From assembly GCA_905178155.1 (NCBI GenBank), contig CAJINV010000003.1, forward strand, positions 9,245,979-9,309,978: DNA of 64,000 nt. Reading direction: 5' to 3'. How positions within the stretch are numbered: position 1 is the first letter of the stretch; every line of letters starts with the position of its first letter. The translations under genes were made by a program, and so were the position numbers. Below, piece by piece: positions 2,541 through 35,337 of this stretch. Source of the DNA: Amoebophrya sp. A120 (lineage: Eukaryota > Protista > Dinoflagellata). Below the pieces are notes generated by a model. That model did no database searches. It was not told where the DNA came from and saw only the letters and a list, made by a program, of their open reading frames with translations.

Positions 2541-2611
2541 GGTCGTTGTAGCGACTTCATCCGCGGGCGACGTCGGCTATGATTCCCCAGAGGGCGCAGC
2601 GACTTTGCTGG

Positions 2612-6450: not shown

Positions 6451-6559
6451 GCCTTCCTATTTCGAACCGATTCGCAGCATTCGAATGCATGCGCGGACGA
6501 ACTCGGCCAAAACTTACAGAAGAAAACAGCAAACCCGCCAAAATTTACGCCGAGCCATA

Positions 6560-9746: not shown

Positions 9747-9767
9747 GATAGCATAGCGTTGTTCTTT

Positions 9768-12700
9768 TTATGCATAATATGCATTAGCATAAGCGAGCGA
9801 CGCGACTTGACTAAATGAGAGGTCTTCTGTAGACTGTTTGAGGTATTCCACGGCCCCATGAACGCCCGGCATCGGAGGAGTACCTGACAGCTCTCCATTA
9901 TCCAGAAAAAAAAGTGTGTAAGTGTAACTTTCTTTGAGGAACAGCATCACAAATTTGCTTTGTCATGCGTGGCTTGTAAGGCAAAACACACCTGAAAAGA
10001 GAGCTTCGTGGCTGTCTGGCATGACAGGTGTAACTCTGTTGCATGTTCTGCAACACAAATTTACACTTACACAGTTTTTTTCTTGCATATCCATGCTCTT
10101 CCCGGTCATGGAATTCGAGTAGTACTCCTTCGAGGTATATCAACTGCAAATATGTCTGGGTCTGGAAGGATGCGAACTTGTGATGCGTGTTGCGGATCAT
10201 GCAAAAATTTGTGTTGCATGACTTGCAAAAGGTCCCCATTTCTAGCCATTTTTTCATTTCATTTCATTCAGAAGGGCGCTTCTCATGCATCGCATCGCAT
10301 CGTATCGCATCGTAGTGACCTTTGACTCCTGTCAGGGTGGCGTTGGAACAGCTTTAGCCCCTGCCAATACCTGGGCGTTAGAACAGATTTCGCCTCTGCC
10401 AATACCCCTCACCATCATCATCATTGAGACGGACCCCCTGTGGTCGTCCTCACGGCGTCGTCTTGGCCCTAGGCTGTTTCGGACAGATGTTGGTTGTGTC
10501 CGGCGTGAGGACGGCTCTGCATGGGCCTCATGCAGAGAAGGCATTTCTCATGCAGAATAGGCTTCACCAAGGGGCTGCAGGACCTGTGAGGACGCTAGGC
10601 CCTGCATTCCAGACCTGGCAGAGCTTGGAAAAACGGCATGACAAATCTCGGAATTTTCCAGACCCAGACATATTTGCATTTCATAAGGTAGTCGAGGACC
10701 ACGGGGCGGTGATCGCTTCCCGTGCAATTGAAATACGCGGTGTACCCCAAAAAGGCCTTCTCCGCGTGGCGACTGCTCAAGTAGGCGCCGCTGGACGCCA
10801 CCTCGTGCCTGGCCAAAGCTGCGGCGTGCGAGTCGTGCTGGCCTGTCAGATGATGACTGTGTCCGCCTCCACCGCCGGGAACTACTGACGTCCTGGAGCT
10901 GCTGGAGGTCGCCGCACAACTTTCAACATCGCTAGAATCCGTTTCGCCCGAAGTGGATGTTGACTGCGGCTGGTCATTGCAGCCTACATTCGCCCCCAAG
11001 GATTGCGCCCTTTTTAACGGAAGCACTTTGATGTCATCTCCTGTCGCGAATCTCGTGGCTACGGAGGGTGAAAGGGCTTCCGCAGATTGAGACGGCACCA
11101 GAGACGAAAAGGATGACAGGGGCAATGCCCCTGTGCCTTGTTGATTCAGCGGACGTCTTCGCAAAACAACGTCTGCCCCATCCTCGTGCAAATGCCGGTG
11201 CGCCGGAACTTTCAGACCGCGCCCGGCAAACAAAATCCGATCACACCAGGCCGGTTGGCGCGACACATCGTAGTGGTACTCTTCTCTGTGAAGCCGGTAA
11301 GTCGGAGGAAACGCGATCGGCATCTCGCGAAGCGCAAGATAGTTCTTGTTCATTCGTGTGGCTACATCTACTCCTGGCGTTTTTCCCAGCTCGCCGGTGT
11401 GCTCTTGCAGACTCAACATGGATGCTGCAGAGATAAGGAAGTCCATATTCAAAGCACGCAACTATAAAAGGTAAAACTCGTCACGTTACTAGATGAAACA
11501 TAGAATAGTCAGGGTACGCAAATTACTCGCGGAAACGACGAGAGTTGTATCAAGGTACGAGGTAGATTTACGCTTACCTTTCTCGTTGAGGTACTGATCA
11601 AACCTGCACAGGTCCCGCCAATGCTTGTAAACGTGGTCGGAATGCCGCGCGGTCGCGCGAAATGGGTCCAACTCTGCGTCGGTGAAGGCAGTGGGGTCAT
11701 AAACATCACTGAGCTGCTCGAACTTAACGCCACCTGCGCTCCCGGTTGATGGGCCCGCAACCGCACTCGAACCACTTCCACGACCCGCGGGCCCAACGAC
11801 CCCAGCCTTCGGAGCTGGCGAAGCACCGCAACCGCTGCTACTTGTGTCAATCCGCGTTTTTAGGAGACGAAAGTTAAAGTCACCAGCACAGATCACAATG
11901 TCATAATTGAAGCGGCTCTTGTCGCTATTCCAGATCCGTCCAGACTGGAGGATGTTTGTCAGTTGCGCGTACCGCCGCGAGGCGTTTGTAATACCGCTCT
12001 CCAGGTGGACGTTGGCGAAGCACAGAGTCGTATCCAAAAGCTGGTATTACAATGAAAAATGCCCCCTCCCCATATCAAAACGGAAATCTGTGATGCAGAT
12101 TTGTGGTCACAAATCAGGTTTGTGATGCTAGAAGGCAAAAGATGCGGACTGTAGTGCTGTCTAGCGTGGGAAAGCCTTGCAGCTCCAGGATGACAGTAGG
12201 CAACTGGAAGTGGGAAACAGCATGACAGATTACCTGCAATTTAGGCCGCAGCTTCGTCTCTTGGCCTTCTATTTGTGTACTCAAATACAGCATCACAAAT
12301 TCGCGCATCTTCCGTTTCCGATATGGGGTGGGGGCTTTTTTCACTTTGATAGCTGGAAGTTCAGCACCACCGCGCCCTTGTTTCCAGCCATGCCGCCCAT
12401 GCCCTCCGGAATATCGCAGCTGCCAATGCGGGAAATCATAGGAGCGAGGTGGTCTGCCACAAACACAACCGAATACTGTCCGATCATCCCGCAACCCTTC
12501 ACTTTCGAGTAGCTCACGTGAGAAAATAGCTTCTCCGACGTAGTGCTGGTCCCACCTCTGAGATTGAGACTCGCACCAGCAGGCTGCTTCGTGGGTGGGT
12601 TGGGAAGATGAACCCCGCTCCTACTAGCCTCCGCAGTCGACTCAGGGCGACCGCTCGCTCGTGGCGGAAGGCTCAGGTCGTAAGAACGAGGTTCGCCAAG

Positions 12701-15700
12701 ACCGTTCCGCCCCTCGACTCCGAGATCGGGATTTGTGGCAGCGGCAGGCGGATCCTTGGCCGGATCAAAACGCGGACAGAAGGGACGCCGGGGGCTCGCG
12801 ACATGGCCGCAGCCGTATTTTTGCTTCAAGGCTGCGTCAATTTTCGCATTGATCTCTTGTATGGAAGCGTCAGGATTGAAATCGACAAAGTTGTAATGCA
12901 TGAAATCGATACCAGTTGGAAGCTCAGTTTCCAAGCGGTGCATGACAAATTTCGGCACCGTCTAAATCTAGTCTGTCATGCTGTTTAGGGACAGGAGGCG
13001 TCTTTTATCGTGCTACTTTAGCAGCTCTATCTCAGACCCCAAACAGGCTGACAGTCAGCCTCACTTGCCATCCCTGCAAGAGAGGCACTTCATGCCTTGC
13101 AATTTATGCATGAGAAATTATTTCAACTGTGACGATTTCAATCCTGACAGTTCCATATCTTGTTCGATCGTCGTATCCCAGGAACCCCCGACCAGGGATG
13201 TGGCGGTGGCGACGTATCAAATGTAAAAATGTCTGGGTCTGGAAGAGTCATGCTGTTTTTGCATGACACAGAAGGTCTGGCATGGAAGCTCTAGCATTAC
13301 AGGTTTCGAGAAGCTTCCGCAATGTCGAATCCGCATGACAAATCCCCCACTTTGGTGACAGAAAGTGGGCAGCTTCTGCTACCCATGCATGAGAGATTTT
13401 TCTGTGTTCTGAAATGTGCATTACAAGTTCGGATTCTTCCAGACCCAGACACTTTTACATATGATACGACGCCCAGATCCACAACTTCTTGGAAGTTAAA
13501 CACCATGATGTCTCGCGGAACTTCCGGGAGAACGCGCGTCAATTCTTGCAGAGGATCCGTCGTACCGCCCACATTCCACGTGCAGGTGAAAAGCGTGAAA
13601 TTGCCGACGTGTAGCTTCTTACGGTGCTCTCGTGATACCAAAAGTAGCGTCAGAGCGGTGCCAGTGAGCTGACGGCAGCTTTCTTGTCTGGGTGTGGCGG
13701 GCCGCCGCGCCGGCGAAACAACAAGACCAGTGGCCTCGCAGTGCCGTGCGTTGTGCCACTGCTGGGCATCATAGACTGCGCTCTTTTTTTTTTAAGTAAT
13801 TAAAGGTGTGTAGCGGCCGCTCAAACTCGTGCCGGAAAGTCGCAAGCTTCTTGCAATCAAAAAACCAAGGCCGGTCCGCTCGCTGTGCCCGGCCCCCGGA
13901 CCTTCACCAGGGCCGAGCCTTTTGACGCCCGGCCCCGGAGAATCGACATCGGCGGGCGCCACAGTACACGGGCGGGCTTTCAGTTTTTCGCCTTTGCGGA
14001 CATTTTCATACGTTTTCATGTTTTTCGCTCCCGCTTTTTACAATCTATCACAAGCGCCACCGCTCCTTTTCCTTTCCTATCTTTCCAACTTGTTTCCGGA
14101 CAATAACTGGCCGACTCACGATTCGGGTGGCCGCATTTCCGGCCCTCAAATGTGAGCACAAGTGATGCCCTCACCATCCAACGACCTCACTTTTTCCTTA
14201 CTTTCCGCTGTTGCTTTTTTGGCGTCTCCGTTTTCGCGTGCAAAAACTAAATCGCGAGAATCCGCACGTCGCAGCGGCGCTACTTTCGCCCGCTCCCCAC
14301 CTGCGTCGTTCTTTAAACTGACGGCACTGGACAGAATCCAGGTGGGCTTATTTGACGCAAAAAACCAAGTGAGCCGATCAGACTCAGAGTTAGAAAGTGA
14401 CAACAATATTTTTGCATGTGTCAAAAATAAAAGCCTCCGGATCGCTCCAAAATTGCCGGTAGGGTTTCTACTTGCTGCATGTCAAGAAAGCCGCCAGGTT
14501 AGAACACTCGCGAGGACCTCACTCCATACAATATTCTGAAAGCGTTCGGAAAGCGGTGGGCTACGCAGCAAAGCGTCGAGACACTCTTGTCGTGTCGCAT
14601 CTTCCACTAACGCGTTGTATTTGCGCGCGACGGACCTCCAGGCGAATTCGTAGTGCGAGTGCTTGCCCTCCCGCAGGAACGTAGAATAGATGGAGGCCAC
14701 GCCAGTTGTCTGCTCGCTAACTTGATCGCCAGCATCCGCCCACAGGACTTGCAAACCCCCTCGAACGCGCTGCTCGTCGCCGGGCACTAGCAGGCCAGTC
14801 CCGATGCCTACCGTAGCCTCCGCCGAGCTCCTCATCGCGTCGTGCGAATGCCGCTGCGGGTCCCTGAAACTTGCCTCCCCACCTGCTCCATTGTATCCTT
14901 CGCCCGTTCCGCCACTTTCTTTTTCCGCTGCGTGCGACGAGGTAGAAAAGTAGTCAAAAAAACTCTGCCCCCACCCCGGCGCGTCGGCTTCCGGCATCTG
15001 TTTTTCCAGTTGCTGTGACGTCGACTTGGAAGTAGGCAGGGTGGGCACGGGACCACCAAAAAGACGTGTGGGAACCGCGGCACCGACGGCGGCTCTGGAG
15101 GCGGAGGCGCTCTGCTCCGCGCCGTTCGGACATGAACCGTCGTCGTTCTTGACTTGTTTTGGCTCTATTCCTGCGATGAAATCGTGAATGCTTTGCCTCG
15201 TATTTGCTTTTCCAACGCTCCGGGAAGGAGCCGCGGCAGAGCACTTAGGGGATCGTGGGGTTTGCGACGACGAGGCATGATGTGGCTGAGCCACAATCTC
15301 GATCGGCCCGACGCTCGTTAGTGCATCCGGACGCGAGAGCGCATGGCCGCCCTTTATTTTATTTGTGGGGGATGCAGCACTACTCGGCGACTTTCCTGCT
15401 GCGCGGCGCTTTTCCTCGGCAAGAAAAACCTGCTGCACGAACCACCAACAAAAACCAAACTGCATCAGGTTTGTGCGATCCAGGCAATCCATGCAATTCG
15501 TGCGCACGACGCCCGACTGCCGAGTCCTCCACACGCACGGATGTGGTTGTACTGGACTTTCTCCAGCACTTCCGCACGCGTCGCCCGGCTCGTGCGCTTC
15601 ATGATCGGAGGTCCGTCCATGCACTACGTCCTGTGCGCCGCGGCGTCCTGATTCGCCAGCACTTCTATCAAACGTCGTCTGGTGTGTCAGCACCGCCACT

Positions 15701-18700
15701 TGGTGCTCGGGCAAACCGTCACAGCTCGCGAACCCGTACTCTTCGAGTTCCGGCCGCCACTTGTCCATATCAAGTGCAAAAGTGTCTGGGTCTGGAAGAT
15801 TCCGAGATTTGTCATGCATATTTCTCATGACCCATGATGCCTGTGGTGCATGATCTAGCATCACAGACTTTTAGAGGGCTTCCTGATGCAACTTCCGCAT
15901 GAGAAATGCCCTGTCCGTGTAGCACAAACTGTACCCCTCTTGCTGGTCACGCAATACAAATTTTTTTGGAGTCCAAAGTTAGCATCACAAATTCCAACCT
16001 TCCAGACCCAGACATTTTTACATTTGATAGTCCACCTCTGCAAACAATTCCTCCACACTCGTAAGTCCCTTGTGGTTGCAGGATCGTGTGTAGAACTGCT
16101 TCCGCCCCATACTCAAAAAAAACATGATGCCTATGGTGCGTGTTCTGCTTTACACGTCAGAAACTCGTCCGGGGATCTGCATAGCACAAGTTTGTGCTCT
16201 ACTGACTAGGCATACGTATGCAGAAATTGCATGACAAGCACAACAAGTAAGGGGTGGCGGGGAAGTTTTCAAACAGCGTACGAAGTCGAAGTGCTTCAGC
16301 AGAAGGCAGCGACGCGCCCCAGCGGCTGCCCCTGATATTGCACCGTAGTCATCGGGCCCATTCGCGCGCGCGCTGCTCGAGGGGGACCCGCCCGAGGACG
16401 GAGACGAGCTCCCGAGCTGCTCCATCCGGAGCGGCGCCACGCCGCCCGTTTTTCCGGTGCAGTGCGTGGTGGTCTTGTCGTGTCCTCGCGTGGTCGCGGA
16501 AACGCCGTCCACCGCGTGCAGCCGCAATTCGGCGGCGCGCCCGCTATCCTGAGCCGCCGTCGTTCGTGGTGGCGTCACCGTGACGTCGCTGCCCCTTGGT
16601 GGAACACCACGGTCTGTGCCTGCGGGTCCCTGGGCGTCGGAGTGAACAGCTACTGAGACCGCGTCGGATGTACGGAGGAGCTCCGCATCTTTGGGAGCGG
16701 TTGTTGTAGAAGAGGGTGTGGTCGTGCCAACGGCTGTGTTGAGACTGTCTTCTCCTCCTGGCACGACCCCAGAAATGTTGCTGCACGCAGGTGAAGGGAC
16801 CACCGCACCAGCAGAGCTGCTGACGGAAACTGATGCAGCGACAGCCCCACAGTTGTTCTTGAGGCCCTTAGTACTCAACCGCGGCAGCTTCGAAGCCACG
16901 GCACGGCTATCGCGATGCCGAACTTCGCGTAGGTACTCCTGCACTTGCTCCTGCAAGGAGTCGACTAGCATTTGCTCTCCTGCTTTTTTGTCCTATTACA
17001 ATGAAAAATGCCCCCACCCCCGAACTTGGAAGCATTTGTATTGCAAACCTTTCCAAATGAAACATTCGCCCTCTTGCATCTATCAGCATTACAGGTTTCC
17101 AGTCGTGAATAGCGAAAATTTGTATTGCAAAAGACCCCAGCAAGAGCGGCGCTTGTCATGCAGGCAGCGCGATACACGCCTAGACTCTGCATCAGAAAGA
17201 TAAGACTCGTACTCCTTTCATGCATGACAAAAAGTTTTCATTTGGAAACTTCGCATCACAAATTCTTGCAATTTTAGGGGTGGGGGCATTTTTCACTGTA
17301 ATATGTCCGACAGCAAGTTCACGTACATCACGCAACCATACATCCTCTCCAGGCCTTCCTGGTGCTTTCGGAATCCCTCCTTTGCAAACTGCGGATGCGC
17401 GCCATCAAGAGGAAGAATCCCCGCTTCCAGTGGTTCAACATCCACGTGCTTTGCTTTCTTTCTATCGATATCGTGTGCACACGACCCAGCACCATTGTCC
17501 TCACATGTGTACATACATTCCTTCGGAGATACCGGGCGAAGGCCCTCTATTGTTCGGCGCCCCAAAACGAGCACCAGCAGGGAGGTGATAGTACCTCTAT
17601 TTGTCTAGGTGCTAGCTATGGACGCGCTCGACGCCTCTTCTGGTGCCGTAGACCAAACAGCAGTATTCAAGATGGAGCACCGGCGGTAGGATGCGATAGA
17701 AAGCTCTCGATCATTATTTGAAGAGCGCCTTCTGGTCTTCGCAATTTGCGTATACAACTAAACGCATGAGAATCACAGATCTCCTTTGGAACATGGAGAG
17801 CGGGATAAATTTTTCCTGATGATACTCACGGGTCAGCTCCGGAATTCCCATTGCATTTTGCTCCCAGAACAGCGGCACCGATCCCCGTATTTGTATAAAG
17901 CTGTATTGCGTGAACAATGTCGCTGCACCAGCCGTCGTGGCCGAGGGCGTTGTACTAGCAGCAATCGACAAAGATGCAGCGGTCCTGGTGAGCTGTGCGA
18001 GCTGTTCCAATTCGCAGAAGTTAGCAACGTCCCCCGCGTCGTCCATGCCTCGACATGCATACCGAGTGCCAACCCGGCGACAAGAGCGTCGCACGATCAA
18101 CAAGAGCCGGACTGAGGCGGACGAAGGGACTGGACGGCCGGAGCATCCGCTAGCGGGGTCGCTGGCGCTACCCGACGTCGCCATTTCGCAGCCTCTATGG
18201 CCGTTCGTAGCCTTGACATTTTTTTCCTCCCGTGCTGTTGACCCAGTACAATCTGTTGCAGCGCTAGTCGCCTTTCCGCAGGACGCAGGAAAGAAAGTGG
18301 TCGGCTCTCTCACCAGCCCACTAGTAGGAGACTGCAATCCCTGAGGCAACGTAACGTCTTGGTTCGTCCCCAAATTCGGTTGGCTGGGACGGTTGCCTTT
18401 GGCGTACACTCTGTGCGTGCCGGCGTCTTGAGGCACGACGTTGCCTGAGTTTTCTCCCTTTGCGACTGCTCGTCCAGTTCGCGAGGACATACGCTCGGCT
18501 CGCTCGTGGGTGGCACGGTTGTAATCCGCCGGCGACAGAAAAGACACATCATCTATCGCACGCTCCCCGACAAATCCCTGCATAAGCACAGAGAGCCACG
18601 CCTGCGTTCGTGTGTCCTGATGAAGAAAAATCCGTGCCATCTCGTGGTTCCAGACAAACCGTACGTCCGCTGTTTCGAAAAGAAAGTGCTGTGTGTTCTC

Positions 18701-19684
18701 GTAGGAAGCTGACAGTCGCCCACTAGCGGCACGGGGGATTCCGCCTGGGCCTACCGAAATCGGTTTTGCAGGAGGTTCCTGCTGCCGCGCTGCCGGTCCT
18801 ACTACACATGGGCCTCGTTGGTTAGCGGCATCCGCAGTTCCAGTTCCCGTCCCCGACTGCATTTTGACTTCAGTGTTAGCCGCCGAAAGAGAGGAGCTCA
18901 CCGATACGGGCGCGCCGCACCCATCTCGGAGGTGCGAGCGAGTCGAACTAGGCGTACTACGGAGCGCACCCGGCGCAGTCGTTGCGGACGAGTTGTTGTA
19001 CATGGCCAACTTGCGCTGCAGTGTGCGAGTGAGGTCGATCTCGTTGCTGAAGTAGAACCCGGAAGATTGCAGGAGGCGCTCCAGACCCTGGATTTTTTGT
19101 GCGTGTACAGTACTCGTACTATTTTGCGCACTGTTAATGGGCAGTAACTCCACCTGGGCGACCCGGAATATTTTTCCGTACGAAGGGCTCCGGTTGCAGC
19201 CGCCGGCATGGTCGGGTGCGGCCCAGTGGTCACTCGTTGCAGAAGAGCCGGGAAAGAAACTGAACGGGCGCGACGAGGGCCGATCGTCGACGTGCTCGCG
19301 CTGCTTCTTGCTGGTCGTGCCGGCGCCCGAGAAAAAGGGGTACGCGCCCTCAGGGTACAGGTCCAACACTTCAGTGGCCTTGCTGCAGTACAGGAGGTAA
19401 TGCATGCGCTTTTCGAGCGACAGGATTCCAAACAACGCCAAACAGCTCCTCGGAGGGTGTTTTGTCGTGTTACGCTGAAGCCCGAGGGGGGTCTCGTGCA
19501 GCAACGGCATGGAATGCAAATAGTACTCCGATCGGGATGTGAAAAGATGTAGACTCCTTGAAATTCTTGTGCTCGGCGGGCAGTCGCAGCCTGAGCTCTG
19601 CAAAAATGCCCGGCGCAGAAGCACGCCCCTTTTTTGCTCGTCATGGTCGTCTTTCAAACTCACTATGCTTTCTTGGTTGAGCAC
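9768..19684 (-). CDS. Synaptojanin-like phosphoinositide phosphatase (SAC1 domain + inositol polyphosphate 5-phosphatase), multi-exon
   Basis: SAC motifs RRSCRRVGTRY, ANFCELEQ, QIRGSVPLFWEQ, VNLLSDKKAGEQ (after splicing) and catalytic RTNCMDCLDRTN (CX5RT). 5-phosphatase motifs TWNVGG, FQEVVDL, GNKGAV, FANVHL, GDFNFRL, FPPTY, PAWCDRILF, GSDHRPV, in the expected order. Ends approximate. Confidence 0.9.
9899..10089. mobile_element. TIR introner (family D), non-canonical intron
   Basis: TIR TATCCAGAAAAAAAAGTGTGTAAGTGTAA vs TATGCAAGAAAAAAACTGTGTAAGTGTAA; TSD TCCAT (9894-9898, 10090-10094); removal reads EEHG-ELSG. Confidence 0.88.
10138..10685. mobile_element. TIR introner (family A, TGTCTGGGTCTGGAA), non-canonical intron
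   Basis: TIR TATnAAnTGCAAATATGTCTGGGTCTGGAA; TSD AGGTA (10133-10137, 10686-10690); removal reads SDHRPVVLDYL-EGVLLEF. Confidence 0.92.
11425..11577 (-). other. Probable canonical GT-AG intron
   Basis: G|GTAAGC donor and TCTGCAG| acceptor join ORFs 11489-12037 and 10595-11461 in frame (NEK-ASMLSLQ). Confidence 0.6.
12045..12351. mobile_element. TIR introner (family C, GAAAAAnGCCCCCnCCCC), non-canonical intron
   Basis: ~40-bp TIR; TSD GCTGG (12040-12044, 12352-12356); removal reads GNKGAVVLNFQL-LDTTLCFANVHL. Confidence 0.92.
12860..13157. mobile_element. TIR introner (family B, TATGGAAnnGTCAGGATTGAAATCG), non-canonical intron
   Basis: TSD TCTTG (12855-12859, 13158-13162); removal reads TTIEQE-INAKIDAAL. 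Confidence 0.92.
13215..13466. mobile_element. TIR introner (family A), non-canonical intron
   Basis: TIR TATCAnATGTAAAAnTGTCTGGGTCTGGAAGA; TSD CGACG (13210-13214, 13467-13471); removal reads QEVVDLGV-ATATSLVGG. Confidence 0.92.
15768..16029. mobile_element. TIR introner (family A), non-canonical intron
   Basis: TSD GTCCA (15763-15767, 16030-16034); removal reads EELFAEVD-KWRPELEEYGF. Confidence 0.92.
16994..17303. mobile_element. TIR introner (family C), non-canonical intron
   Basis: TIR TATTACARTGAAAAATGCCCCCACCCC; TSD TGTCC (16989-16993, 17304-17308); removal reads VNLLSD-KKAGEQML. Confidence 0.92.
17403..17824. mobile_element. Decayed TIR introner
   Basis: Imperfect IR (CATCAAGAGGAAGAATCCCCGCT vs TATCATCAGGAAAAATTTATCCCGCT); flanks CGCGC/CTCAC match 3/5; removal +5 nt reads ELTR-(A/E)HPQFAKEGFRKH. 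Confidence 0.6.
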
Positions 19685-22600: not shown

Positions 22601-23059
22601 GAGAGTGCGTGGCACTTTGATCCAACAAGAACGAATCTCTACGCGGAGTCTCTCAGTGTCAGTAGTGGTGCTCAGGCCCCCGCATTATACTGTTGTGCAC
22701 AATATCAAACGCAAGTGGTGCTCCTGCAGCATGACGCTTCAAGACTAGTCCTGGCGATGCCCAACGTCGAGCCTTTCGACGAGCCTACTGATTCAACTCA
22801 ATTAGTAGTCTTGTCATCAGAACAGATGAAAGACACTCCCGACAAAGGCAAAAGTAGAAGGCTTGCCAGAGAAAGTGGACGCGGCCAGTAGCAGACTCGC
22901 TGTGCCACAGATGCAGCGCAACATATTACTGGACTTCTACTTCTTTATCCCACACCGACACCACCCGCACTGATTATAGTATTATTACAAAGTGAGACTA
23001 TTTTTCCGCGGCGCTGGTTACAAGAGCTGGAAAGACGGGCGAGCGTGCACGTCGTTTGT

Positions 23060-25130
23060 TCAGGATATGGACATCTCTGGACTACTCTGGTTCGCAGCGA
23101 GGGGGAGGGCGCTCCCGTTCGCCGCGAGGGGGAGGGTGCTCCTGAGAGCGGCAGCGATCTCCTTGTGACGGCGGTCGTCGGTCCGGTGCATCGTCTGATT
23201 CGTAGAAGGATCCTCTTGTAACGGCAGGCCCTCGGGAAGCCCCTCGTCGCCAGACGCCGAGGTCGTAATGTTTGCTGTGCTGTTGGCAGGCGAGTGCTGC
23301 CGAGCAGTAGAGGACCCGGGGTGGCTATTCCTCAAAGTCGTCCCCCGACTCGACGGAGCCCGAGTACCCACGGCACCCGCTTGCTGTTGTTCTACTATCT
23401 TCCTAGCGCAGTCGTAGCCTGAGGGACTCAGCGGCCCTCGCTCGGTCTGAGCAGGATCTTTACCGCTAAGGAGCAAGTACCTCATCCAAACCTATGCAGA
23501 TAAAGCGTACCCCGGCCTCAACATACGCAATGCACTATCATGAATGTTCTTTCCATTGCAGCAAAGCTCCCAGTGCGCGCTGATCATCACGTACTGAATT
23601 TATTTCCGGAGATCGTCGCAATGCCGTCGCGCATTTTGTTCGAATAGCAGGGGCCGGCACGAACAAGATCACGATACTTATAGCAAGGCATGCCGCATGC
23701 GACGACTTGCAACGATCATACAGTTCTCATGTGAAACTGAAGCCTCCGTGCCTTGGTAAACGGATTGCAACCCTAAAGGCAACCCATAACAAGGGTTTTG
23801 CGTTGCATTGACAGAATGCGACGTGTTTTGCTGCAGAACGTCGGCCCGCAAGGCGGAACCAATACTGCAAACCACATCTCGTCTACCATATCTATTTGTA
23901 AGAACACATTCGAAACATCTTCAAGTGTCATACATGCAAGAAGGAAAAAGGAAATGCTTCCGTTGAGGAAAACCGCAAGGCCCTGGGAAGTGCTTTGTAG
24001 GGGCGGGAAGGGGCACGCTTTTTCGTATGATAAGAACTGCTCGTGATTGAGCAACCGATAATCAAGCGTCTTCAGCGCCCACCGTTGCACCTCCATCAGA
24101 TGCTTCTTAGGGTACACGGGGTACATGTCCTTCTTTTCCTTGTACTGGGACGGAATCCACCCTGCAAGTCGTTTTTGTTTTTCTTTATAATTTTGGCCAG
24201 GCCGACATCGAAGCAGTCCTCCAAGCAGCAGGCCAGCGCATCTCAAATCAAGAATTTAGTGGTATAGGTATTGAGAAAACAAAGGGACGACAAATAAAAA
24301 GACAAAAGGGAAAAACTATACGGAAGACGTAGTCGAACCACCACTTGAAATGACCCGGCTCGTCGAAGATGACAAGCGTGGCTATGCGAAGCAAGATCGT
24401 GAAGATCTTTCCGTTTGTATCACGTTCAAAATTGCCCCCACCACACTGCTACCCCTAAAGACAGCCCTCATGTCTGCTACTTCCGTGAAACTACACGCAG
24501 TGACTTAAAAATTGCTACCAGATACTGATTACTTAATCATCGAGGACAGGAGGCTTGCTTTGGTGAGTAGTTGAAGGAGACCTTTTTGCACAAGATAGAT
24601 TTCCGCATCATCCGCTGCAAATTTGCCCTTATTCTCTCGCATCCAAGCGTCGTAGTTGTTGTACGAGGCAGGCCTCGGCATTACGGGCTGGCCGCTTGCT
24701 ATCGCAACAAAAAACTGTTTCTCTGTAAACTTGTAATGCAGAAAATGTATCTGAGAAGTATTTGTCTTGCTACACATGCAAGACAATGGATTTTTAGCTG
24801 TGTTTTCTCTTAGGAATCTCGCATGGCAAATTTTCTCTATGATGTAGAACAAACTTGTGATGCAAAACTTGCAAAATCCTTACAGTGAAACACTTTTTTC
24901 GTGCGATACTTGCGTTCTTCTTGCGATTGAGTGGCGGCTTGGACCCCGTCGGGTTGTGATCTTGGTCGTACCGCCTATATTCATCCTCCCATCCGTAAAT
25001 GGCTGCTCGCTGGTCCATCACCCAGAGCTCCTCATCAACCGGAATTTTCTCTTCTGGGTCGATAGTATGTGGTGGCGTGGGTGTGTCCTTAGGCGCTTCG
25101 TCTATCCTACAGAAAAGCAGAGCTACTAGT
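23060..25130 (-). CDS. Hypothetical protein, multi-exon
   Basis: ORFs 24794-25021 and 24529-24852 join in frame across the 24700-24908 element; further exon-like ORFs at 23773-24246 and 23060-23485. No family recognised; ends approximate. Confidence 0.5.
24700..24908. mobile_element. TIR introner (family D-like), non-canonical intron
   Basis: TIR TATCGCAACAAAAAACTGTTTCTCTGTAA vs TATCGCACGAAAAAAGTGTTTCACTGTAA; TSD CTTGC (24695-24699, 24909-24913); removal reads RKKNAS-GQPVMP. Confidence 0.9.
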
Positions 25131-27612
25131 ACAATAAACTTTATCTTTTTGTCTCAGCGTTTACCCGTAGTATTGTACCCTGTGGTACTCATCACATTGA
25201 GATTGAGTAGATACAAGTATCCAAAAGGACACACATATAGGTACTTTGAATAGCGCGCTCGCATTCCTTCGTAGCTTCTCTGGTCAGATACTTGAACTTA
25301 TACAATAATATTGACGTGCCTGCTCTGAGTCTGACAACTCTGTCTTGTACACTTGCATGGGACACTTCGCCAAGTAAGTGTTCGCGATTTTATACAACTT
25401 GGGCTAGGCGGAGAGAAAAGCCGTGACTATGCAAGCGCTTTTCTGTATGATATTTTCCTGCAGCTTCACAAAGTACCACGACCCAAGGGCTAAGACGGCT
25501 GTGAAGAATGATGACAGTTTTCGTTTGTGTGGTGCAAGGCAGCAGCATCGCTTGCCCGCCCGTGCAAGGACTAGCACAGCGGCTTTCTTCCTCTAGCTGA
25601 GGTAAAGACCGCCAAGCAAAGCTTTCGAGCGGAAAAATCAGTAGCAAAAGACGGAGCCATCGGTCGTGGCCACTCAAATGAAATCAAAATCATCTCATTC
25701 AGATACAATTACAAATCCATTTCTATTTGTTGCGGGGGCAAATTAACAAAAAACAAAAGTATCATAGAAAAGTTTTTCATCGGGTGAGGAAAGATTTTGC
25801 AAGACACTAAAGCTGTATTATACCAGAAACATGCTCGCTTGCGTGCATTCGGAATTCTTTCATCAGCTGGACGGTATTGCGGACACTCTGCCATATGGGA
25901 AGACTGAGGCGAACGTTTATCAAGACAACCATGCGCCGGACCATCTTCACCAGAACCCTATTCACTGCAAATGTGTCATGGCCATATCAAGACAAAAGAA
26001 CTACATGGCGACAAGTAGCTCCCACACACACATCTTCCAGCCTCGTTGTCCTTAATTAAATTTCTAAGAACTTTGATATATTTATAAGTCGCTCTCGTCG
26101 GAGTATCCCAGTGTCAGTACACGATTTTCATTTTGATTTTGGGTGCTATAATGAAGTCGCAGCGCATTTGCTAAAAATACTCTACTAGACCCCGAGGTGG
26201 CAAGACAATATTTGGGAAGGACAGAGGATACATTTTCCATTTGTAAAAGCAGCTCGACCTATTTATTATGAATGCATATCACCTTCTTCATTGTCTAGGC
26301 GACCACAACACACTTGCCAGCGATAATCGAAATCGAGCTTCGGTTCGCGCCTGTCGATGAAGAAGCGGAAAAGCATACAATCTATAGAATAGGACATCAA
26401 ATGTGAAATGCTAGAGGTACGAGGATCCAGGTGGGGCCACGTATGCGCATCCTGGTTTTCGTTTTCATGTCTTCCCCGTACGATGTGCTGAAGTTGCATT
26501 TTAATAGTGAATCAAAAACTGAGTACTTATATACCAAAATGTGTGCTGCCTGGAATTTAAGTCGTCGCGCATGTACTTCACTGAAACTTCGTCGGAGTCG
26601 GTCCTTGCGCTCGGGACTCAAAATGAAAACATTCCCCATCAAAGGTGAGTCATACACAATGCAAAGTTCTTGCTCTACTTGCTTACAAGAAAATAGCTCG
26701 CCGTACGTGCGCTTTGTTTCGTTTATCCTTTTCCTGCGATGCTTAGTCTACAATTGATGCTGGCCAAGCAAATAGATCTAAGTACTATATGCTCTCCTGG
26801 GTGGGCAATGTTTGACTCTGCTTACGCTTGCAAATCGTTTCCTGCCCTCGTCTATAAAGACGCGGAACGTGTTTAGCGTCCGCCTATGGATTGCAAATAT
26901 GTCATGGCCATAGAACTTACCAGGGCACTTGCCTAGCGAAAGTAGTGCACTTCCAAGGCGTATTGCCCTACACAGAAGCTTAAACGAAGCTGTGTTCCTT
27001 TCGCATGACATGCAGTAATCACCAAAATCTATAAGACCAGGGCTCGGTATCTAGAGGTCCATGGTCTTGACATCTTTGCAGCGCGTACAGTCTGCTGTCC
27101 GGCTTCAACCAACCTTGCTGCTCGTCCGTCTGTCAATTCATAACATCGATCGTCGCTTCATCTCGCAGTTGTGTTCAAGTCGCAAGTCGACTCGAACTAA
27201 TACTAAACAAATCCAAACGCAAATAAGTAAAACAAGTAAAAAAGCTTCAATCAATACCAGGCAAGGACTGGAAGCTTGGGTCGATGCCCCGGACAAAGAC
27301 GGCGGAAAAGAATAGAGGGAAAGTCAGTGAGCTTAAGTGACACTACAGGAATTACTAGCCCCGAAAAATATAATCGAAGTTGCCATGAATTCCGTATCCT
27401 GATCTACTTCCTTGATATGTTTAAAGTGAATCTGCGCGTTTCATTCTTGTACGTAGTTGTCGCCTCGCCGCACAGAGAGGAAAGAACTCTATGAACTCTG
27501 ATGCAACATCAGACAGAGTGATGCAAACAAGAAGAACCAAGGCTCCTATGTATGGGCTGCCATGCGTTTACTTTTTCGGGGCTCAGCTTGCTGTGGAAAA
27601 TGAAAGTCACCT

Positions 27613-30020
27613 CTAGATTTCCCGTTCATAACACACACACGACTCGCTCTTGGGAAAAGGAATGCCGGCAAGTCCCAAACCGTGCGGGCCAAAATGCCGG
27701 GCGGCATAGGTTCTCTCCAACTGGTCTCGAGGGCTCGGGGTCGGCAACCCGTACGATGACCTTGAGCCCCTGCAATGAGGACCGACGAGATGGGGTGTTT
27801 GCAGCGATGGCGTCGACTGCGAGGCTGCAGTGGTGCTCGGGGTATCGGCGACGCTTTGGCTGCCTGAGCGGTGGCTGATAATATCCTGGTTATGAGGTGA
27901 CGGCGTGGCTCGGCTCAGCGACTCGCTTTCGGATGAGGCACCCCGCCCGCGCTTGATTCGTGGCGGCGTTCCTAACCCAAGTGCGGCGCTCGAAGACGAG
28001 TTGTCCCCATCCATGCCCGTGAGCTGAATCTCCCAACTTCCCGAAGAAGACCCTGTGCCAGAGCAGGTGCCGAACTGTAGACAACATCCCTCGTCACGTA
28101 GAGGCGCGCTTTCGTAGGTGTCGGGCGCGGGTCCCGCTGGTCCTTCGCAGGGTCCCATCTCCTCGGGCATGCGGTCGATGTACACTTTGTGGAAAGCCTC
28201 GCGCTCAGCCGGAGTGAGGTTCTGAAAACCCGGCACCTTCCACAGGGACTCCCAATTGTCCTGTGGTCGGCGTGGAGGTTGAGGATGAGGATGCGCGCCG
28301 GTATTACCGCCGCTAGAATGGTCGCAACTAGAAGTAGAGCACATCGGCCTCGGCGCGGACGCGGTCCCCATTTTTGTTGCTGGCGCCCGCTGCTGGACAG
28401 ACGCTGCGCATGCAGGCTCCACTGCGCCTGCTGTGGTTCGTGGCAACGAAGGATTGTTCCCAATGTTGTTGCCGGACCGCGGCGGAGGCATCGGATGCAG
28501 GGTCAAAGAATTCGCTGAGGGCACGCCCGGTTTCCGGTTGTTTGCTGCGGCGCCGGGCGGACCTTTTGTCCCGCTAGCACTCGTGCTGGTGCTGCCAGCA
28601 CCCCACGGTACAAACCCTCCTGTCTGCGCGGCGTCGAACGCGCCCTTGGACAAGGCGCCCTTGGACATCAACGCTTCTAGAAAAGTTTTCTGCCGCTTCG
28701 GGCGCGGTTGCGAGCCAGGCGACAGTATGGATTGCAAAAATGTCTGGGTCTGGAAAAATGCAGCAGTTTGTCATGCAGATTTGCATGGCCCATGAGGTCT
28801 GTGATGCATGCCACAGCGTCAGAGATTTTGCGAGGGTTTTCTGATGCTCATACCGCATGAGAAATGCCCTCTCCGCGTAGCACAAATTAGACCTCTTTTG
28901 CTGTTCATGCAATACAGATTTTATGTAGATTCCAGAAGTAGCATGACAAGTTGTATTCTTCCAGACCCAGACATATTTGCATTTGATAGACAGTGACAGA
29001 CTCCCGATGTCTGCCTCGATCCCCGCCATTTCTCGATCCACCTCATGGTCATCATAGCCGCCGGGGGGGCCTCCACCTCCACACGCTTCGCCGGTTCCCG
29101 CTGCCTCGTCGGAGGAAGATGGAAAGCCGATAAACTGATGGCTTACACGGTGGAGCTGGTGAGAAGACGACGGTGGTGCGCTGCCCGGCGTGCTAGCTTG
29201 TGAGGAAGCGGCGGCGTAGGGAAATAGAACGTTTCGCGATGTTTCCCCAGAAAGCCGAAACTGGTCTCCACCTCGATCTCTGTGGGTGGTTGCGTGAAAC
29301 CACCAAACCAAAACCCTGGAGCACCCCCGAAGCAGCACGGTCGATCCCCCTCTCCATACGGCGAGCCGCCGTTGCTGGCCACGCGCCCCGTTTTCGGCTC
29401 TCTTGTTCCGCCGATCAAAGAAAAAAACTGCGCTGTGCGACGAGTTCGTATACAAAACAACTAGATTGCAGGTGCACAGGCAGCGCAACCGTTTGCGGCA
29501 CTGCATTAGCTCCTGCCAAGGCGAACCAGAAACTGCCCACGACCTCCCTCAATTTCCTGAACCTAAATACCTGCCTGCACTGCGGTGCATTGTTGAGAGC
29601 CAGGCATCTCGAAAGACGCAACACCGCCAATGGGAGCAGTACAGGAACGCTCAACTTCAACAATCGGGGAGGTCCATGCATACTTAAAAGCATACAAATG
29701 TATACAAAAACGCTACCGCAGCTGGTACGTCGTCGTGTAAACAATAATCAGAGAGCTTTGCTGTTCTTATGGTCGCTTTCTTTCTCGCCTGAAAACAAGT
29801 ATAGTAGGTCAACATAGAAGAATACCTAGAAGTATTGCGCATCTTCTGCAAAGAAATGCCGAATCTCTTACCACAGCTTTTTTCTTGGATATCTCCACAT
29901 TCTCGCTCGCAACGGGCACTGACCGGTCGAGCAAGTGCGGCAAGTGGTTTTCCAAAGCCCTGACGACCTCAAGGAGAGTGCTGGAGCTAGGCAGACAGAT
30001 GCGCTGGCGCGGCTGCAATT
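27613..30020 (-). CDS. Hypothetical Ser/Gly/Pro-rich protein, multi-exon
   Basis: ORFs 28574-29506 and 27613-28737 join in frame across the 28726-28988 element (GSLSLS-PGSQPRPKRQ); upstream exons unresolved. Confidence 0.55.
28726..28988. mobile_element. TIR introner (family A), non-canonical intron
   Basis: TSD GACAG (28721-28725, 28989-28993); internal sequence clearly homologous to 15768-16029. Confidence 0.92.
29413..29891. mobile_element. Decayed TIR introner
   Basis: GATCAAAGAAAAAAACTGCG vs TATCCAAGAAAAAAGCTGTG (16/20); flanks CCGCC/TCTCC match 3/5. Confidence 0.55.
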
Positions 30021-32033: not shown

Positions 32034-34683
32034 CTACCACAGTGCCTTCCCAAAGTGTAGGACAGAATTTTTGTTCTGGCGGACCATCTGCTCGCGCTTT
32101 GCGAAGATAATCGTGATGCTGCCACCTCTTGCAGGAACGCGCACTGTAAATTTTTCGCCTACTATTGCACGATAGAATATCGTCTGCGTTTCTGGTGTCC
32201 GGTGGCGCGGCAGCACAGCTTCGTCGTTCTCGTTAGGGGTAACGAACTCTCGATGAGCATGCTGCACATGAAAGTCATCTGCAGCTTCCACATTGGTCAC
32301 CGACTGCTTCGACACTTGTTCAAAATTAGACGCTGTTAGAGCGCCGGTGTGTTCGGCCCAGGCGTCCACCCCGACAAGCTCGGTGCCATGTTGGAAAGCG
32401 GACAATGACATCTTCGCCCAACACGCTGCGTCACAAGACACATCGGCAGCAGCCGGTTTGAAATTCGTAAAGATCATCGCTATCGCAGAATGAGAGGAAT
32501 AAATTGCTCGCCTTTGCGATCCCACAGGCCCGGAAGATTGGTCGCGCACTTGGTCGCGCCGCTCATGATATAATTCAGGTGCGTCGCGGCTTCTGACGTT
32601 CTCTTTCAAGAACTTCTCGGTGAACCCTTTTTTGGGCGAGCAACGCAAAGGCCCTCCGCATTCTCTATCCAGATGATCCGCTGCACCGAGCAGGCGACCC
32701 AACCCGATGGAAGAGTGCTGCACGAGGTCGGAGGCAGTGAGCACAATCTCCCGTGCTGCAACGTGTGTGAGATCCAGAAAGCCGTAACTGACGATTCCGC
32801 CCTGCCGACGTGCCTGCTGGTTCACTGAAATCAGGAGCCCGTTGCGGTAAGTGGTGAGGTCCCACTCAGTGGGGCTGCGGCTGCTGACGTTTTTGCTTGA
32901 GTGCAAGAAGAACAGCTCAGACGACAAGTCCGGCCCAAATGCTGGGGTCGCCTCGCGATCCACCTGGCCGCCCTGCTCCTGATTTATTGTTCGTGCTCTA
33001 CCACCATAAAAATCCTCTTCATTCGTCTCTAACTCCCTGTGGTCTGCGAGTTCTTTGGGGCTCGGCCTGCTATCGAGGGGCGCACCGAGCAGGAGCGGGG
33101 CCCCGATCACGCAGTACAGCGAGAACTGGGTCCGGCTGACCGCTGGGTCCATGTAGATCAATTTTGCCTGCACGGACCGGTGCGCGGGGTTCGGTGAACT
33201 CGCAATCAGCATGTCCAGGTCATTCCAGCCGCCGGGACTGCCATACGCCTGCAGGTCCCGAAAGCGACGCAGTGCATCTAGCAATGACAATACGTCCGTG
33301 ACGTCCGCGGAAATGCGCCACATATTCGCAAGCGGGGCCCCGAACGGGGGCATGGCGTAGAACCGCAGGTCGGAAACAAAAGGGTGCTGCCAACCACCAC
33401 CGCACACGGAGTACAGTACCGGGTGTTCCCTCCGTTGGTTCTTCAGCAAGGCATCGCGGAAGGCCTGAAAACCGTCCAGTTCCGCCGTTTGGGTCTGCTC
33501 CGCATAACAGTTGTCGATCTTCACAAAGTCGACCGCCCAATCGATTGCGAACTGCCGTGCGTTATGGAAGCGTCAGGATCGAAATCGACAAAGGTGAAAT
33601 AATTTGCCATGCATAAAATGGATGCCAGTTGGAACCCAGTTTGTATAGTGGCGCATGACATTGGTGGTCTACGAGTTGCAGAGTTAGTGGCGCATGACAA
33701 ATTTCGGGAGCGCCAAAATCCAGTTTGTCATGCTGTTTGGACAAAGAAGACTACTCCTGTCATGCTACTCTAGCAGCACATCGTCTTCCCCCAAACAGGC
33801 TTGCAAAAATCGGTCTCCTCTGCCTGCTCCCCAACACAGGGGGCCTTGAGTGCCCCACATTCTCTGCATTACAAATTTTTCGACTTTGTCGATTTCGATC
33901 CTGACACTCCCATATGCGTCCACTGCTTCGTACTGGTGCGACCCCGGACGGCCGGCGCACGTTTCCGTGCCCCGGTCCGTGTAGATCCCGAATTTCAGGC
34001 CCAACGCGTGAATTTGATCGGCCACGGCTCGTATTCCGTTTGGAAACCGGTGGGGGTCGGCCACCAGTTTCTGGGTGTCCTGGTCGCGCGCGTCCGCCTG
34101 CCAACAGTCGTCGAGATTCACGTATTCGTAACCCAGGGCCGCGAGCCCGCTCTCTTTCAGGTAGCGGGCGCGCTCGAGCACGATCCTGAGAAAAAACATC
34201 CCCACGACGACCCAAGAGAGAGTCAAGATGAGAAAAAACTATTGCCCTTTTGGGTCGAGATGGCGACAACTCTGCAACACAAACCTAGAAGTTTTCGGCG
34301 CCACGCATGACAAGTTTGGAATGCTAGTGTAGTCGCATTCAGCTAAGCACTGTAGCTGCATCACAAACCGATCCCCGTCCTGATTCTGGCATCATGACAA
34401 ACTGCCAGACAGCATTGCAGAATGCTCCCCATGGGGCTGCGCAGGAGAAACGTCTGAGGCTTGCAGTTTTCCACCACATCCACAACTCTGGGGTGGAGAC
34501 GTTTTCACATGGGATAAGCACGATCGTTTCGTCTACATCGCAACCAACGTCGTTCCAACTATTGTAACCCATCGGTGGAAGGCGAGCAAGCCCGTTCTGC
34601 AGCGCTTGCGCGACCAAACCGGTCGAGGAGGAGGGTCGTGACACCGACAATGCTGAGAAACCTGCCAAGTGCAGGAATCCCAT
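32034..34683 (-). CDS. Glycoside hydrolase family 27 alpha-galactosidase / alpha-N-acetylgalactosaminidase, 3 exons
   Basis: LQNGLARLPPMGYNSWN, GYEYVNLDDCW, RFPNGI, GLKFGIY, TCAGRPGS, spliced DARQFAIDWAVDFVKIDNC (nucleophile Asp), NMWRISADV (acid/base Asp), PGGWNDLDML; hydrophobic N-terminus. Start codon uncertain. Confidence 0.93.
33563..33914. mobile_element. TIR introner (family B), non-canonical intron
   Basis: TIR TATGGnAGnGTCAGGATCGAAATCGACAAAG; TSD TGCGT (33558-33562, 33915-33919); removal rebuilds the GH27 motif EAVDA-RQFAIDW. Confidence 0.93.
34182..34516. mobile_element. TIR introner (family C-like; left end GAT), non-canonical intron
   Basis: GATCCTGAGAAAAAACATCCCCAC vs TATCCCATGTGAAAACGTCTCCAC; TSD AGCAC (34177-34181, 34517-34521); removal reads VDETIVL-ERARYLKESGL. 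Confidence 0.85.
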
Positions 34684-35337
34684 GAAGAAAAGCCAGCTAG
34701 AGACGTGGGCCGCAACTTGTCGAAGGCGAAGATTGAGCCAGAAGCAGACGCTATGAGTATGAAGCTCGCGCCCGAGGGACAACATTAGGAACCAAATGCG
34801 TGGCGGGCAAAAATCCAGTCAGCGCGAAAACCAGCATGCCTCTTCGTCGACACACTCTCTTTTGATCGAAAAGAAGAAAGCAACCCGGTCCACGGAGGTC
34901 TCGCGTACACAAGCACGGGTATCTTAAGCAAGTGCAAACTGCCTTGGTTTGGCGAATTTTCCTAGATTCAAAAAAATTTTTGCCTCGCGATCTTTGGTGA
35001 ACAGAAGAAGCAGTAGACAACAGAGAGCTGCGACGCTCAAAAGCACGAAGGCATGCACTCACTCTATATGTCTCGAAAATGCGTCGATGCTGTTGTTTTG
35101 CGGCTGCTTCTTTCAAGCCACAAATGAAACCCTGTCGTTCTTAAGGATGTGCATTTGGCTTTGGGAGAGAGAACACGCAAGATCATAAGAGTCCTCCCTG
35201 TCAGTTTGTCACCATTCCAACCAGGTCTTCCTGAGCGTGACCACAGCTGTTCGCGCTACCAGTTGGAGAAAAAAGCAAGATGATTTGATTACACGGCGAA
35301 CAAGAACTCATTATATCATATTATTTTTCAGTTTGTT

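What the first reader, a model, noticed from the sequence alone, without database searches (positions are those of the whole stretch)
9894..34521. Transposon-introns with TAT...ATA ends and 5-bp TSDs whose exact removal is never GT-AG
Seen: 11 insertions (9899, 10138, 12045, 12860, 13215, 15768, 16994, 24700, 28726, 33563, 34182) from at least 4 TIR families, each with a different perfect 5-bp TSD, sit in coding exons. Deleting element + one TSD restores the frame in all 11, including conserved motifs (SAC VNLLSDKK, 5-phosphatase NFQLLDTTLCF, GH27 DARQFAIDW). Sliding the boundary through the TSD gives no GT-AG pair in any of them. Established: IR-flanked 'introner' non-canonical introns have been reported in Amoebophrya, with the splicing mechanism unresolved as far as I know. 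Inference: excision is defined by end pairing plus a fixed 5-nt stagger, implying a structure-guided splicing activity or precise DNA-level excision (IES-like).
Basis: partly seen in the sequence, partly recalled or inferred. Interest (0 to 1): 0.9.

Follow-up and report, generated by a model that had tools for sequence, protein, structure and literature searches.

The report
Amoebophrya transposon introns, cut site mapped
These are the already published jumping-DNA introns of the marine parasite Amoebophrya A120, removed from its transcripts without the usual GT-AG signals; aged copies point to one fixed cut position and to an invariant adenine that likely serves as the branch point, which would make an open question about their splicing testable.

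Summary
The 11 insertions are real: paired ends, different 5-bp target duplications, no GT-AG on the coding strand. The window is Amoebophrya sp. A120. These are the introner elements of Farhat 2021; public gene models already drop element+5 nt at 9 of 9 sites checked. Transcript contigs show that skip directly at 4 of 11; DNA contigs keep the elements. DNA elimination is unlikely.

Not found in print: 14 aged copies with unequal duplications share one cut position. The intron starts 1 nt before the terminal TA and ends 4 nt past the far arm (14 of 14; the neighbouring position fits 10 of 14). At that position +2 T, +3 A and -7 A hold in 25 of 25 copies and in 5 of 5 from a held-out gene, against -7 A in 1 of 9 canonical introns. 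End pairing is predicted lost in 5 of 14 aged copies. Likely mechanism: a relaxed spliceosome measuring from a branch A; untested. The scan noted a similar element in Prorocentrum (not checked).

The parts
9899..10089 (-). young element; intron 9895-10090 at the inferred cut position
   Evidence: public model P0011 drops 196 nt; no transcript joint seen
10138..10685 (-). young element, inverted relative to its three family members
   Evidence: P0011 drops 553 nt; contig piece begins at 10686
12045..12351 (-). young element in the 5-phosphatase domain
   Evidence: transcript contigs skip 312 nt; P0011
12860..13157 (-). young element
   Evidence: P0011 drops 303 nt; contig length arithmetic
13215..13466 (-). 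young element
   Evidence: P0011 drops 257 nt; contig length arithmetic
15768..16029 (-). young element
   Evidence: one transcript contig (X3) skips 267 nt; P0011
16994..17303 (-). young element in the SAC domain
   Evidence: P0011 drops 315 nt; contig pieces end at 16988
24700..24908 (-). young element
   Evidence: joint 24694->24909 in 4 of 4 runs, one sample
28726..28988 (-). young element
   Evidence: joint 28720->28989 in 4 of 4 runs, one sample
33563..33914 (-). young element in the GH27 gene
   Evidence: P0001 drops 357 nt; contig pieces end at 33557 in 4 of 4 runs
34182..34516 (-). young element, far end ATC instead of ATA
   Evidence: P0001 drops 340 nt; joint not among the rows shown
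26612..26825 (-). aged element intron, not slidable: fixes the cut 1 nt before TA; ends GT-CG
   Evidence: joint 26611->26826; arms in register
19504..19773 (-). aged element intron, not slidable; ends GT-GT
   Evidence: P0011 allows one placement; contig piece ends at 19503
29409..29892 (-). aged element intron; excludes a cut exactly at TAT; starts AT at the common position
   Evidence: joint 29408->29893
22553..23068 (-). aged element intron
   Evidence: joint 22550->23067, short side 27 nt
23489..24033 (-). aged element intron
   Evidence: joint
24414..24598 (-). aged element intron
   Evidence: joint
25099..25453 (-). aged element intron
   Evidence: joint
25955..26326 (-). aged element intron
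   Evidence: joint
26881..27088 (-). aged element intron, starts TAC
   Evidence: joint
27307..27631 (-). aged element intron
   Evidence: joint
17399..17825 (-). aged element intron
   Evidence: contig piece ends plus P0011
16078..16281 (-). aged element intron by annotation; retained in one transcript contig
   Evidence: X3 record 9 spans 16030-16288
19877..20291 (-). aged element intron, annotation only
8258..8726 (-). aged element intron, annotation only
35567..36007 (-). aged element with a 4 of 5 duplication; fits the rule but constrains the cut weakly; not counted
8194..20339 (-). host gene 1: SAC plus inositol 5-phosphatase domains (synaptojanin-like, label recalled), 2161 aa
   Evidence: P0011
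23068..31325 (-). host gene 2: one spliced contig carrying 4 GT-AG and 10 element introns
32037..34785 (-). host gene 3: GH27 alpha-galactosidase-like, 684 aa
   Evidence: P0001
54680..59145 (-). held-out gene (P0012): 5 element introns and 4 GT-AG introns

Best explanation
These are the introner elements of Amoebophrya sp. A120: short non-coding inserts with paired ends and 5-bp duplications that transcript contigs skip exactly, likely cut by the host spliceosome at a fixed position measured from the element's own ends. Shown: the anatomy, the strain, skipping of element+5 nt, either orientation in coding exons, GT-AG introns in the same transcripts. Strongly inferred from aged copies: the intron runs from 1 nt before the terminal TA to 4 nt past the far arm, so the mRNA keeps four bases of the first duplication copy and the last base of the second. 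Inferred, untested: the terminal T and A stand in for the +2 U and +3 A of a normal donor with +1 free; the invariant A at -7 is the branch nucleotide; the 3' cut is set by distance from it, with no AG; the T run at -15 to -17 and the hairpin of young copies help assembly but perfect end pairing is not required. Because both ends carry the same motif, any insertion in either direction with any 5-bp target becomes a clean intron. The mobilising enzyme is assumed to be a 5-bp-staggered transposase acting in trans; none was seen.
For: Strain: 100% identity to proteins named Amoebophrya sp. A120. Published match: A120 inverted repeats start TAT, 7 nt, then As; direct repeats 3-5 nt (5 bp in the Fig. 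S19 legend). Skips of element+5 in transcript contigs at 12045, 15768, 24700, 28726; in public models at 9 of 9 checked. Cut position allowed by 14 of 14 aged copies and 11 of 11 with transcript support; neighbours 10 of 14 and 3 of 14; random positions share one in 1 of 200,000 draws. +2 T, +3 A, -7 A in 25 of 25; -6 T in 24 of 25; -5 A only 6 of 14 aged (Fisher p=0.002 against +2 T). -7 A kept in 3 of 3 aged copies whose pairing partner at +4 has changed. Retention of -7 A in 14 of 14 has p=0.003 or 4e-6 on two neutral yardsticks. A prediction noted beforehand held in 5 of 5 element introns of another gene. -7 A in 1 of 9 GT-AG introns. The nine top A120 end types in the paper's Table S4 all have T second. 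83 of 89 spliceosomal proteins and U2, U4, U5, U6 were found in A120, U1 not. Fixed branch-to-end distances of this size exist in Yarrowia, Trichomonas and Giardia.
Against: No lariat or branch data; the branch role of -7 A rests on conservation alone, and that A is inherited from the inverted repeat. The sample is 30 introns in one window, all genes on the - strand, so the polarity was not seen to flip with a + strand gene. Transcript data are contigs of one sample, labelled 'RNA?', and 9 of 24 joints were not shown. Only 4 of 14 aged copies exclude a cut exactly at TAT, and all 4 offer a G start (three GT, one GA one base further up), so 'cut at TAT, shift to G' is not excluded. Intron +1 equals the first base of the next exon in 10 of 14 aged copies against 23 of 56 at the other duplication positions (p=0.07), which a fixed cut does not explain. 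The held-out gene had no non-slidable intron, so it tested the motif, not the cut position. The bases around -7 match a U2 branch consensus only weakly, and in young copies that A is predicted paired. The A run at +12 to +14 and the T run are both kept (pairs in 11 of 14), which favours some pairing.
Confidence: 0.55

Rival explanations
1. RNA-level removal guided by the terminal hairpin, as for Euglena nonconventional introns: a paired AU/AU core with 2-nt and 5-nt spacers is cut by a non-lariat activity or a second machine, releasing circles or linear introns.
For: Young copies pair in register (mean pair probability 0.57-1.00, 11 of 11). The pairs +3:-6, +4:-7 and +12 to +16 are the best kept in aged copies. 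Euglena uses a paired motif with 3-nt and 5-nt spacers and needs the pairing. U1 was not found in A120.
Against: In-register pairing is predicted near zero in 5 of 14 aged copies, 3 with transcript joints (long-range folding is uncertain). -7 A stays when +4 changes (3 of 3). Two further non-GT-AG introns without visible arms also have -7 A at a GT start (annotation-based).
Confidence: 0.28
2. Same RNA splicing, but the cut is not fixed: it falls at TAT or one base before it (mixed, or shifting to a G when one is offered), with the 5-nt stagger kept.
For: 10 of 14 aged copies allow both positions; all 4 that exclude TAT offer a G start; identity of intron +1 with the next exon's first base is kept more than expected.
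Against: In 4 of 4 aged copies where the two bases differ, the downstream base is the one kept, never the upstream one (three by transcript contigs, one by annotation). Table S4 lists only N-T starts among the top A120 types, although aligner placement affects that table.
Confidence: 0.12
3. Programmed DNA excision (IES-like) in some life stage.
For: Transposon-like ends and precise loss of one duplication copy; only one DNA sample was laid, as contigs that drop rare forms.
Against: All 6 listed flank contigs of the DNA run end or start 23-30 nt inside elements at 39-47x (this run may be the assembly's source). The cut is asymmetric and has the same polarity in 14 of 14, although family members sit in both orientations. 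One transcript contig retains an aged element while skipping its neighbour. No separate germline nucleus is known for this parasite (recalled).
Confidence: 0.03
4. The inserts break the genes, or nearby GT/GC-AG sites are used.
For: Frame-equivalent GT/GC-AG pairs lie within 30 nt at 11 of 11 sites.
Against: Exact element+5 skips in transcript contigs at 4 sites and at 9 aged joints; the A25 orthologue aligns without gaps across all 8 junction windows shown for P0012.
Confidence: 0.02

Closest known systems
Introner elements / non-canonical introns of Amoebophrya sp. A120 (Farhat et al. 2021, PMC7789003)
   Same: Same strain and same elements: TAT-starting inverted repeats with an A run, 3-5-nt direct repeats, non-GT-AG ends supported by RNA-seq, hairpin proposed, thousands of copies.
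   Different: The paper calls splice sites variable relative to the hairpin and leaves the border position unknown (Fig. 3 legend); 'lariat' and a branch point do not occur in its main text. Here one cut position and an invariant -7 A are inferred.
Euglenid nonconventional introns (PMC12501133; review PMC11282704)
   Same: No GT-AG, slidable direct repeats, paired ends, fixed spacers with 5 nt at the 3' end; their code too was read from non-slidable introns.
   Different: CAG/CTG at +4/-8 with a 3-nt 5' spacer, pairing shown essential, circular products; here TA at +2 and AT at -7, and pairing decays in aged copies.
Fritillaria borealis non-canonical introns (review PMC11282704; bioRxiv 10.1101/2025.08.15.670264)
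   Same: Derived from miniature inverted-repeat elements; removed by an adapted U2 spliceosome.
   Different: Preferred ends AG-AC and AG-AT, U1 present; here 20 different end types among 25 introns.
Introners of Micromonas, Aureococcus and Polarella
   Same: Non-autonomous transposons that create introns, with one duplication copy lost on splicing.
   Different: They carry or co-opt GT/GC-AG sites; these need none.
Introns with fixed branch-to-acceptor distance (Yarrowia, Trichomonas, Giardia; PMC2483917)
   Same: A branch A 6-8 nt from the 3' end (my count from the motifs quoted), as proposed here at -7.
   Different: Those have a strict branch consensus and a terminal AG; these have neither.
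Ciliate internal eliminated sequences (recalled)
   Same: Transposon-derived, precise loss from coding exons.
   Different: Removed from DNA, TA-bounded, need a germline/soma split; here the DNA sample keeps the elements and the duplication is any 5 bp.

Membership tests
Amoebophrya A120 introner elements | Host is strain A120 | tested here: met
   3 of 3 protein searches gave 100% identical proteins named A120
Amoebophrya A120 introner elements | Inverted repeats at both intron ends starting TAT, then 7 nt and three or more A | tested here: met
   TAT at the 5' arm in 11 of 11; AAA run in 8 of 11
Amoebophrya A120 introner elements | Direct repeats of 3-5 nt over the exon/intron borders | tested here: met
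   5 nt in 11 of 11
Amoebophrya A120 introner elements | Removed from transcripts with non-GT-AG ends | tested here: met
   direct at 4 of 11, by contig ends or lengths at 5 more, annotation only at 2
Amoebophrya A120 introner elements | Repeated across the genome | tested here: met
   summed DNA contig depth 1e4-3e5 over elements against about 45 on flanks; families within the window
Miniature inverted-repeat transposons | Short, non-coding, terminal inverted repeats and target duplication | tested here: met
   191-548 nt
Miniature inverted-repeat transposons | Cognate autonomous element with a transposase | not testable with these tools
   no genome held; no Pfam match in 7 frames of the 6-kb relative; the paper found none in A120, a later one a TIR family with integrase-like frames
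U2 spliceosomal introns | GT/GC-AG ends | tested here: not met
   0 of 25 at the inferred cut
U2 spliceosomal introns | Branch adenosine and lariat product | not testable with these tools
   candidate A at -7 in 30 of 30; no lariat data
U12 introns | AT-AC or GT-AG ends with the extended U12 donor | tested here: not met
   AT-AC in 1 of 25; U11/U12 absent per the paper
Euglenid nonconventional introns | CAG at +4 and CTG at -8 | tested here: not met
   column counts
Euglenid nonconventional introns | End pairing required | tested here: inconclusive
   predicted in 11 of 11 young copies, near zero in 5 of 14 aged
Euglenid nonconventional introns | Released as full-length circles | not testable with these tools
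   no raw RNA reads of this strain were laid
Ciliate IES | TA-bounded, one TA left | tested here: not met
   11 different 5-bp duplications
Ciliate IES | Absent from the expressed DNA | tested here: inconclusive
   the one DNA run laid keeps the elements; contigs drop rare forms and other stages were not seen

The most novel reading that the evidence does not exclude
A120 runs a spliceosome without U1 RNA that reads a code with no fixed terminal dinucleotides: N-U-A at the 5' end and a branch A exactly 7 nt from the 3' cut. The transposon's inverted repeat encodes both signals at both ends, so every insertion, in either direction and at any 5-bp target, is born a perfect intron.
Probability: 0.4. 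Interest if true: 0.85.

Novelty: already known. Interest (0 to 1): 0.5.

Why it matters
The elements are known, but how about 65% of this organism's introns are removed is still open. A fixed cut position and a named candidate branch nucleotide turn that into two direct tests: a genome-wide count on existing RNA-seq, and lariat sequencing. If the branch reading holds, a spliceosome can drop both G+1 and the terminal AG and set the 3' cut by distance, which bears on how transposons become harmless introns. The rule would also let the A120 intron borders be annotated without ambiguity.

Tried and rejected
No whole genome was held, so nothing here is genome-wide. No listed run is on record as RNA of this strain; X3-X6 are guessed RNA and behave as spliced transcripts. 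Raw RNA run X9 (same species label) laid only 123 partial reads, 121 of them 90-95% alike, on element ends and none on exons: uninformative. The DNA run swamped the joints table (502 rows not shown), so empty sites could not be counted. A G/C bias at intron -4 (14 of 14 aged, p=0.03) failed in the held-out gene (2 of 5): dropped. Left out of the counts: 13639-14529 and 9253-9883 (non-GT-AG, no clear arms, annotation-based; both fit the rule at a GT start) and 35567-36007 (fits, weak constraint). Rfam: 0 matches in the window. Pfam: no transposase in 7 frames of the 6-kb element. Scan look-ups by place and by sequence were empty. No orthologue close enough to show an empty DNA site was found; the A25 protein gives only protein-level continuity.
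Full report
Observation. All 11 insertions exist at the given starts, 191-548 nt long, each with a different perfect 5-bp duplication and paired arms. Shuffled sequence gave no such pair with 18 or more of 25 arm matches in 50 trials; the window has 10. They fall into four families and one singleton, and family members occur in both orientations. On the coding strand no placement of element+5 gives GT-AG or GC-AG in any of the 11. Corrections are minor: 34182 starts GAT; 10138 has a GT-AG placement on the non-coding strand; frame-equivalent canonical sites lie within 30 nt of all 11.

Identity. Three protein searches returned 100% identical proteins named Amoebophrya sp. A120. The host genes are a SAC plus 5-phosphatase protein and a GH27 enzyme, with an unnamed gene between them. 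Mapping the public proteins back shows implied introns of exactly element+5 at 9 of 9 sites in those two genes. Farhat et al. 2021 describe for A120 29,850 repeated introns with inverted repeats starting TAT, 7 nt, then As, and 3-5-nt direct repeats; they found no U1 RNA and left the mechanism open. The elements are therefore already known, in this strain.

RNA or DNA. Contigs of runs X3-X6 (one sample, guessed RNA) skip canonical GT-AG introns and the elements in the same records. Exact element+5 skips are seen at 12045 and 15768 and at 24700 and 28726. Contig ends or lengths agree at 10138, 12860, 13215, 16994 and 33563. Sites 9899 and 34182 rest on annotation. In DNA run X1 all 6 listed flank contigs end or start 23-30 nt inside elements at 39-47x, and element depth sums to 1e4-3e5, as expected for many copies. 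That run may be the source of the assembly and contigs drop rare forms, so it shows the filled state, not the absence of empty sites. One transcript contig keeps the aged element 16078-16281 while skipping 15768 next to it.

The cut position. With a perfect duplication the junction can slide, which is why the paper marks the border as unknown. The same genes hold aged copies whose two duplication copies differ. Of 15 joints shown (24 found), 4 are GT-AG, 2 are young elements and 9 are aged copies. Two more aged copies are fixed by contig ends together with annotation (17399, 19504), and three by annotation alone. One placement fits all 14: the intron begins 1 nt before the first T of the near arm and ends 4 nt past the far arm. 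Starting exactly at the T fits 10 of 14; starting 2 nt before fits 3 of 14; independent random placements agree in 1 of 200,000 draws. Two copies cannot slide at all (26612, 19504) and sit at that placement. The caveat is that all four copies excluding the T start also offer a G start. The top nine A120 end types in the paper's Table S4 all have T in second place, which agrees.

What is conserved. At that placement the first base and the last four bases are free: 20 end types among 25 introns. +2 T, +3 A and -7 A are present in 25 of 25, -6 T in 24 of 25. The -5 A that would pair with +2 T survives in only 6 of 14 aged copies, and -7 A survives in all 3 whose +4 is no longer T. The intronic duplication tail matches its exonic twin at 23 of 56 positions, so there was time to drift; keeping -7 A in 14 of 14 has p between 0.003 and 4e-6. 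An A run at +12 to +14 and a T run at -15 to -17 are also kept. Folding predicts in-register end pairing in 11 of 11 young copies but almost none in 5 of 14 aged ones, 3 of which have transcript joints. I wrote the motif down as a prediction and then fetched another gene's model: 5 of 5 element introns allow TA at +2 with A at -7; none was non-slidable. Chance per placement is 0.009, but the motif is also inherited from the repeat, so that figure overstates the test. Among 9 GT-AG introns, 1 has A at -7.

Mechanism. Shown: insertion in either direction with a 5-bp duplication, and exact loss from transcripts. Strongly inferred: a fixed, gene-polarised cut, which points to RNA rather than to a symmetric DNA excision. 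Inferred and untested: the spliceosome, which A120 largely retains, reads T and A of the arm as donor +2 and +3, branches at -7 A and sets the 3' cut by distance. Fixed branch distances of 6-8 nt are known in Yarrowia, Trichomonas and Giardia. The main rival is a hairpin-guided, non-lariat route as in Euglena, where a paired motif with 3-nt and 5-nt spacers is needed. Unexplained by either: intron +1 equals the next exon's first base in 10 of 14 aged copies (p=0.07).

Literature seen. PMC7789003: abstract, sections 10, 11, 12, 16 in full, passages of the methods, supplement part 3 of 5 and legend passages; its figures (Fig. 3, S19-S25) could not be seen and may show more about the border. PMC11282704: section 6 and passages. 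Passages only: PMC12130899, PMC12501133, PMC2483917, PMC11453091, PMC9860276, bioRxiv 2024.09.05.611473 and 2025.08.15.670264. The claim that the cut position and -7 A are not in print rests on searches of an open-access library; Roy 2023 and Henriet 2019 were seen only as citations. IES features and the synaptojanin label are recalled.

Verdict. A real and striking feature, already described for this strain. Interest 0.5; novelty: already known.

Noticed in passing
window 1509-7553: A 6045-bp foldback-like element with the same TAT...ATA ends and a 5-bp duplication: about 970-bp inverted arms (91% alike) built of 108-bp repeats, around 15.7 copies of a 244-bp unit. It lies beyond the stop of gene 1; no Pfam match in 7 frames.
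   Followed up: partly
window 58051-58339: Element intron that also allows a GT-AG placement three bases away; some of the 'canonical introns with repeats' counted for A120 may be such coincidences.
   Followed up: partly
window 13639-14529 and 9253-9883: Two annotated non-GT-AG introns (GT-TG, GT-AA) without clear arms that still have A at -7: possibly very old elements on the way to ordinary introns.
   Followed up: partly
aged copies, 8258-29892: Intron +1 is G in 6 of 14 aged against 2 of 11 young copies; 3 of the 4 changed +1 bases are G.
   Followed up: no
window 56923-56931, 9884-9894, 26326-26349: Very short exons (about 9, 11 and 24 nt) wedged between an element intron and another intron.
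   Followed up: no
window 16078-16281: Aged element retained in one transcript contig and broken at its edge in another run: possibly inefficient splicing.
   Followed up: no
run X9 on window 15979-16029: 117 raw RNA reads of a related sample carry a diverged end of the same element family running into other sequence.
   Followed up: no
window 8000-60000: All mapped genes and the long open frames lie on the - strand, in line with the one-direction gene clusters reported for the genus.
   Followed up: no
window 60960, 43362, 45924: Further arm-like motifs without a perfect duplication, probably more aged elements in genes not mapped here.
   Followed up: no
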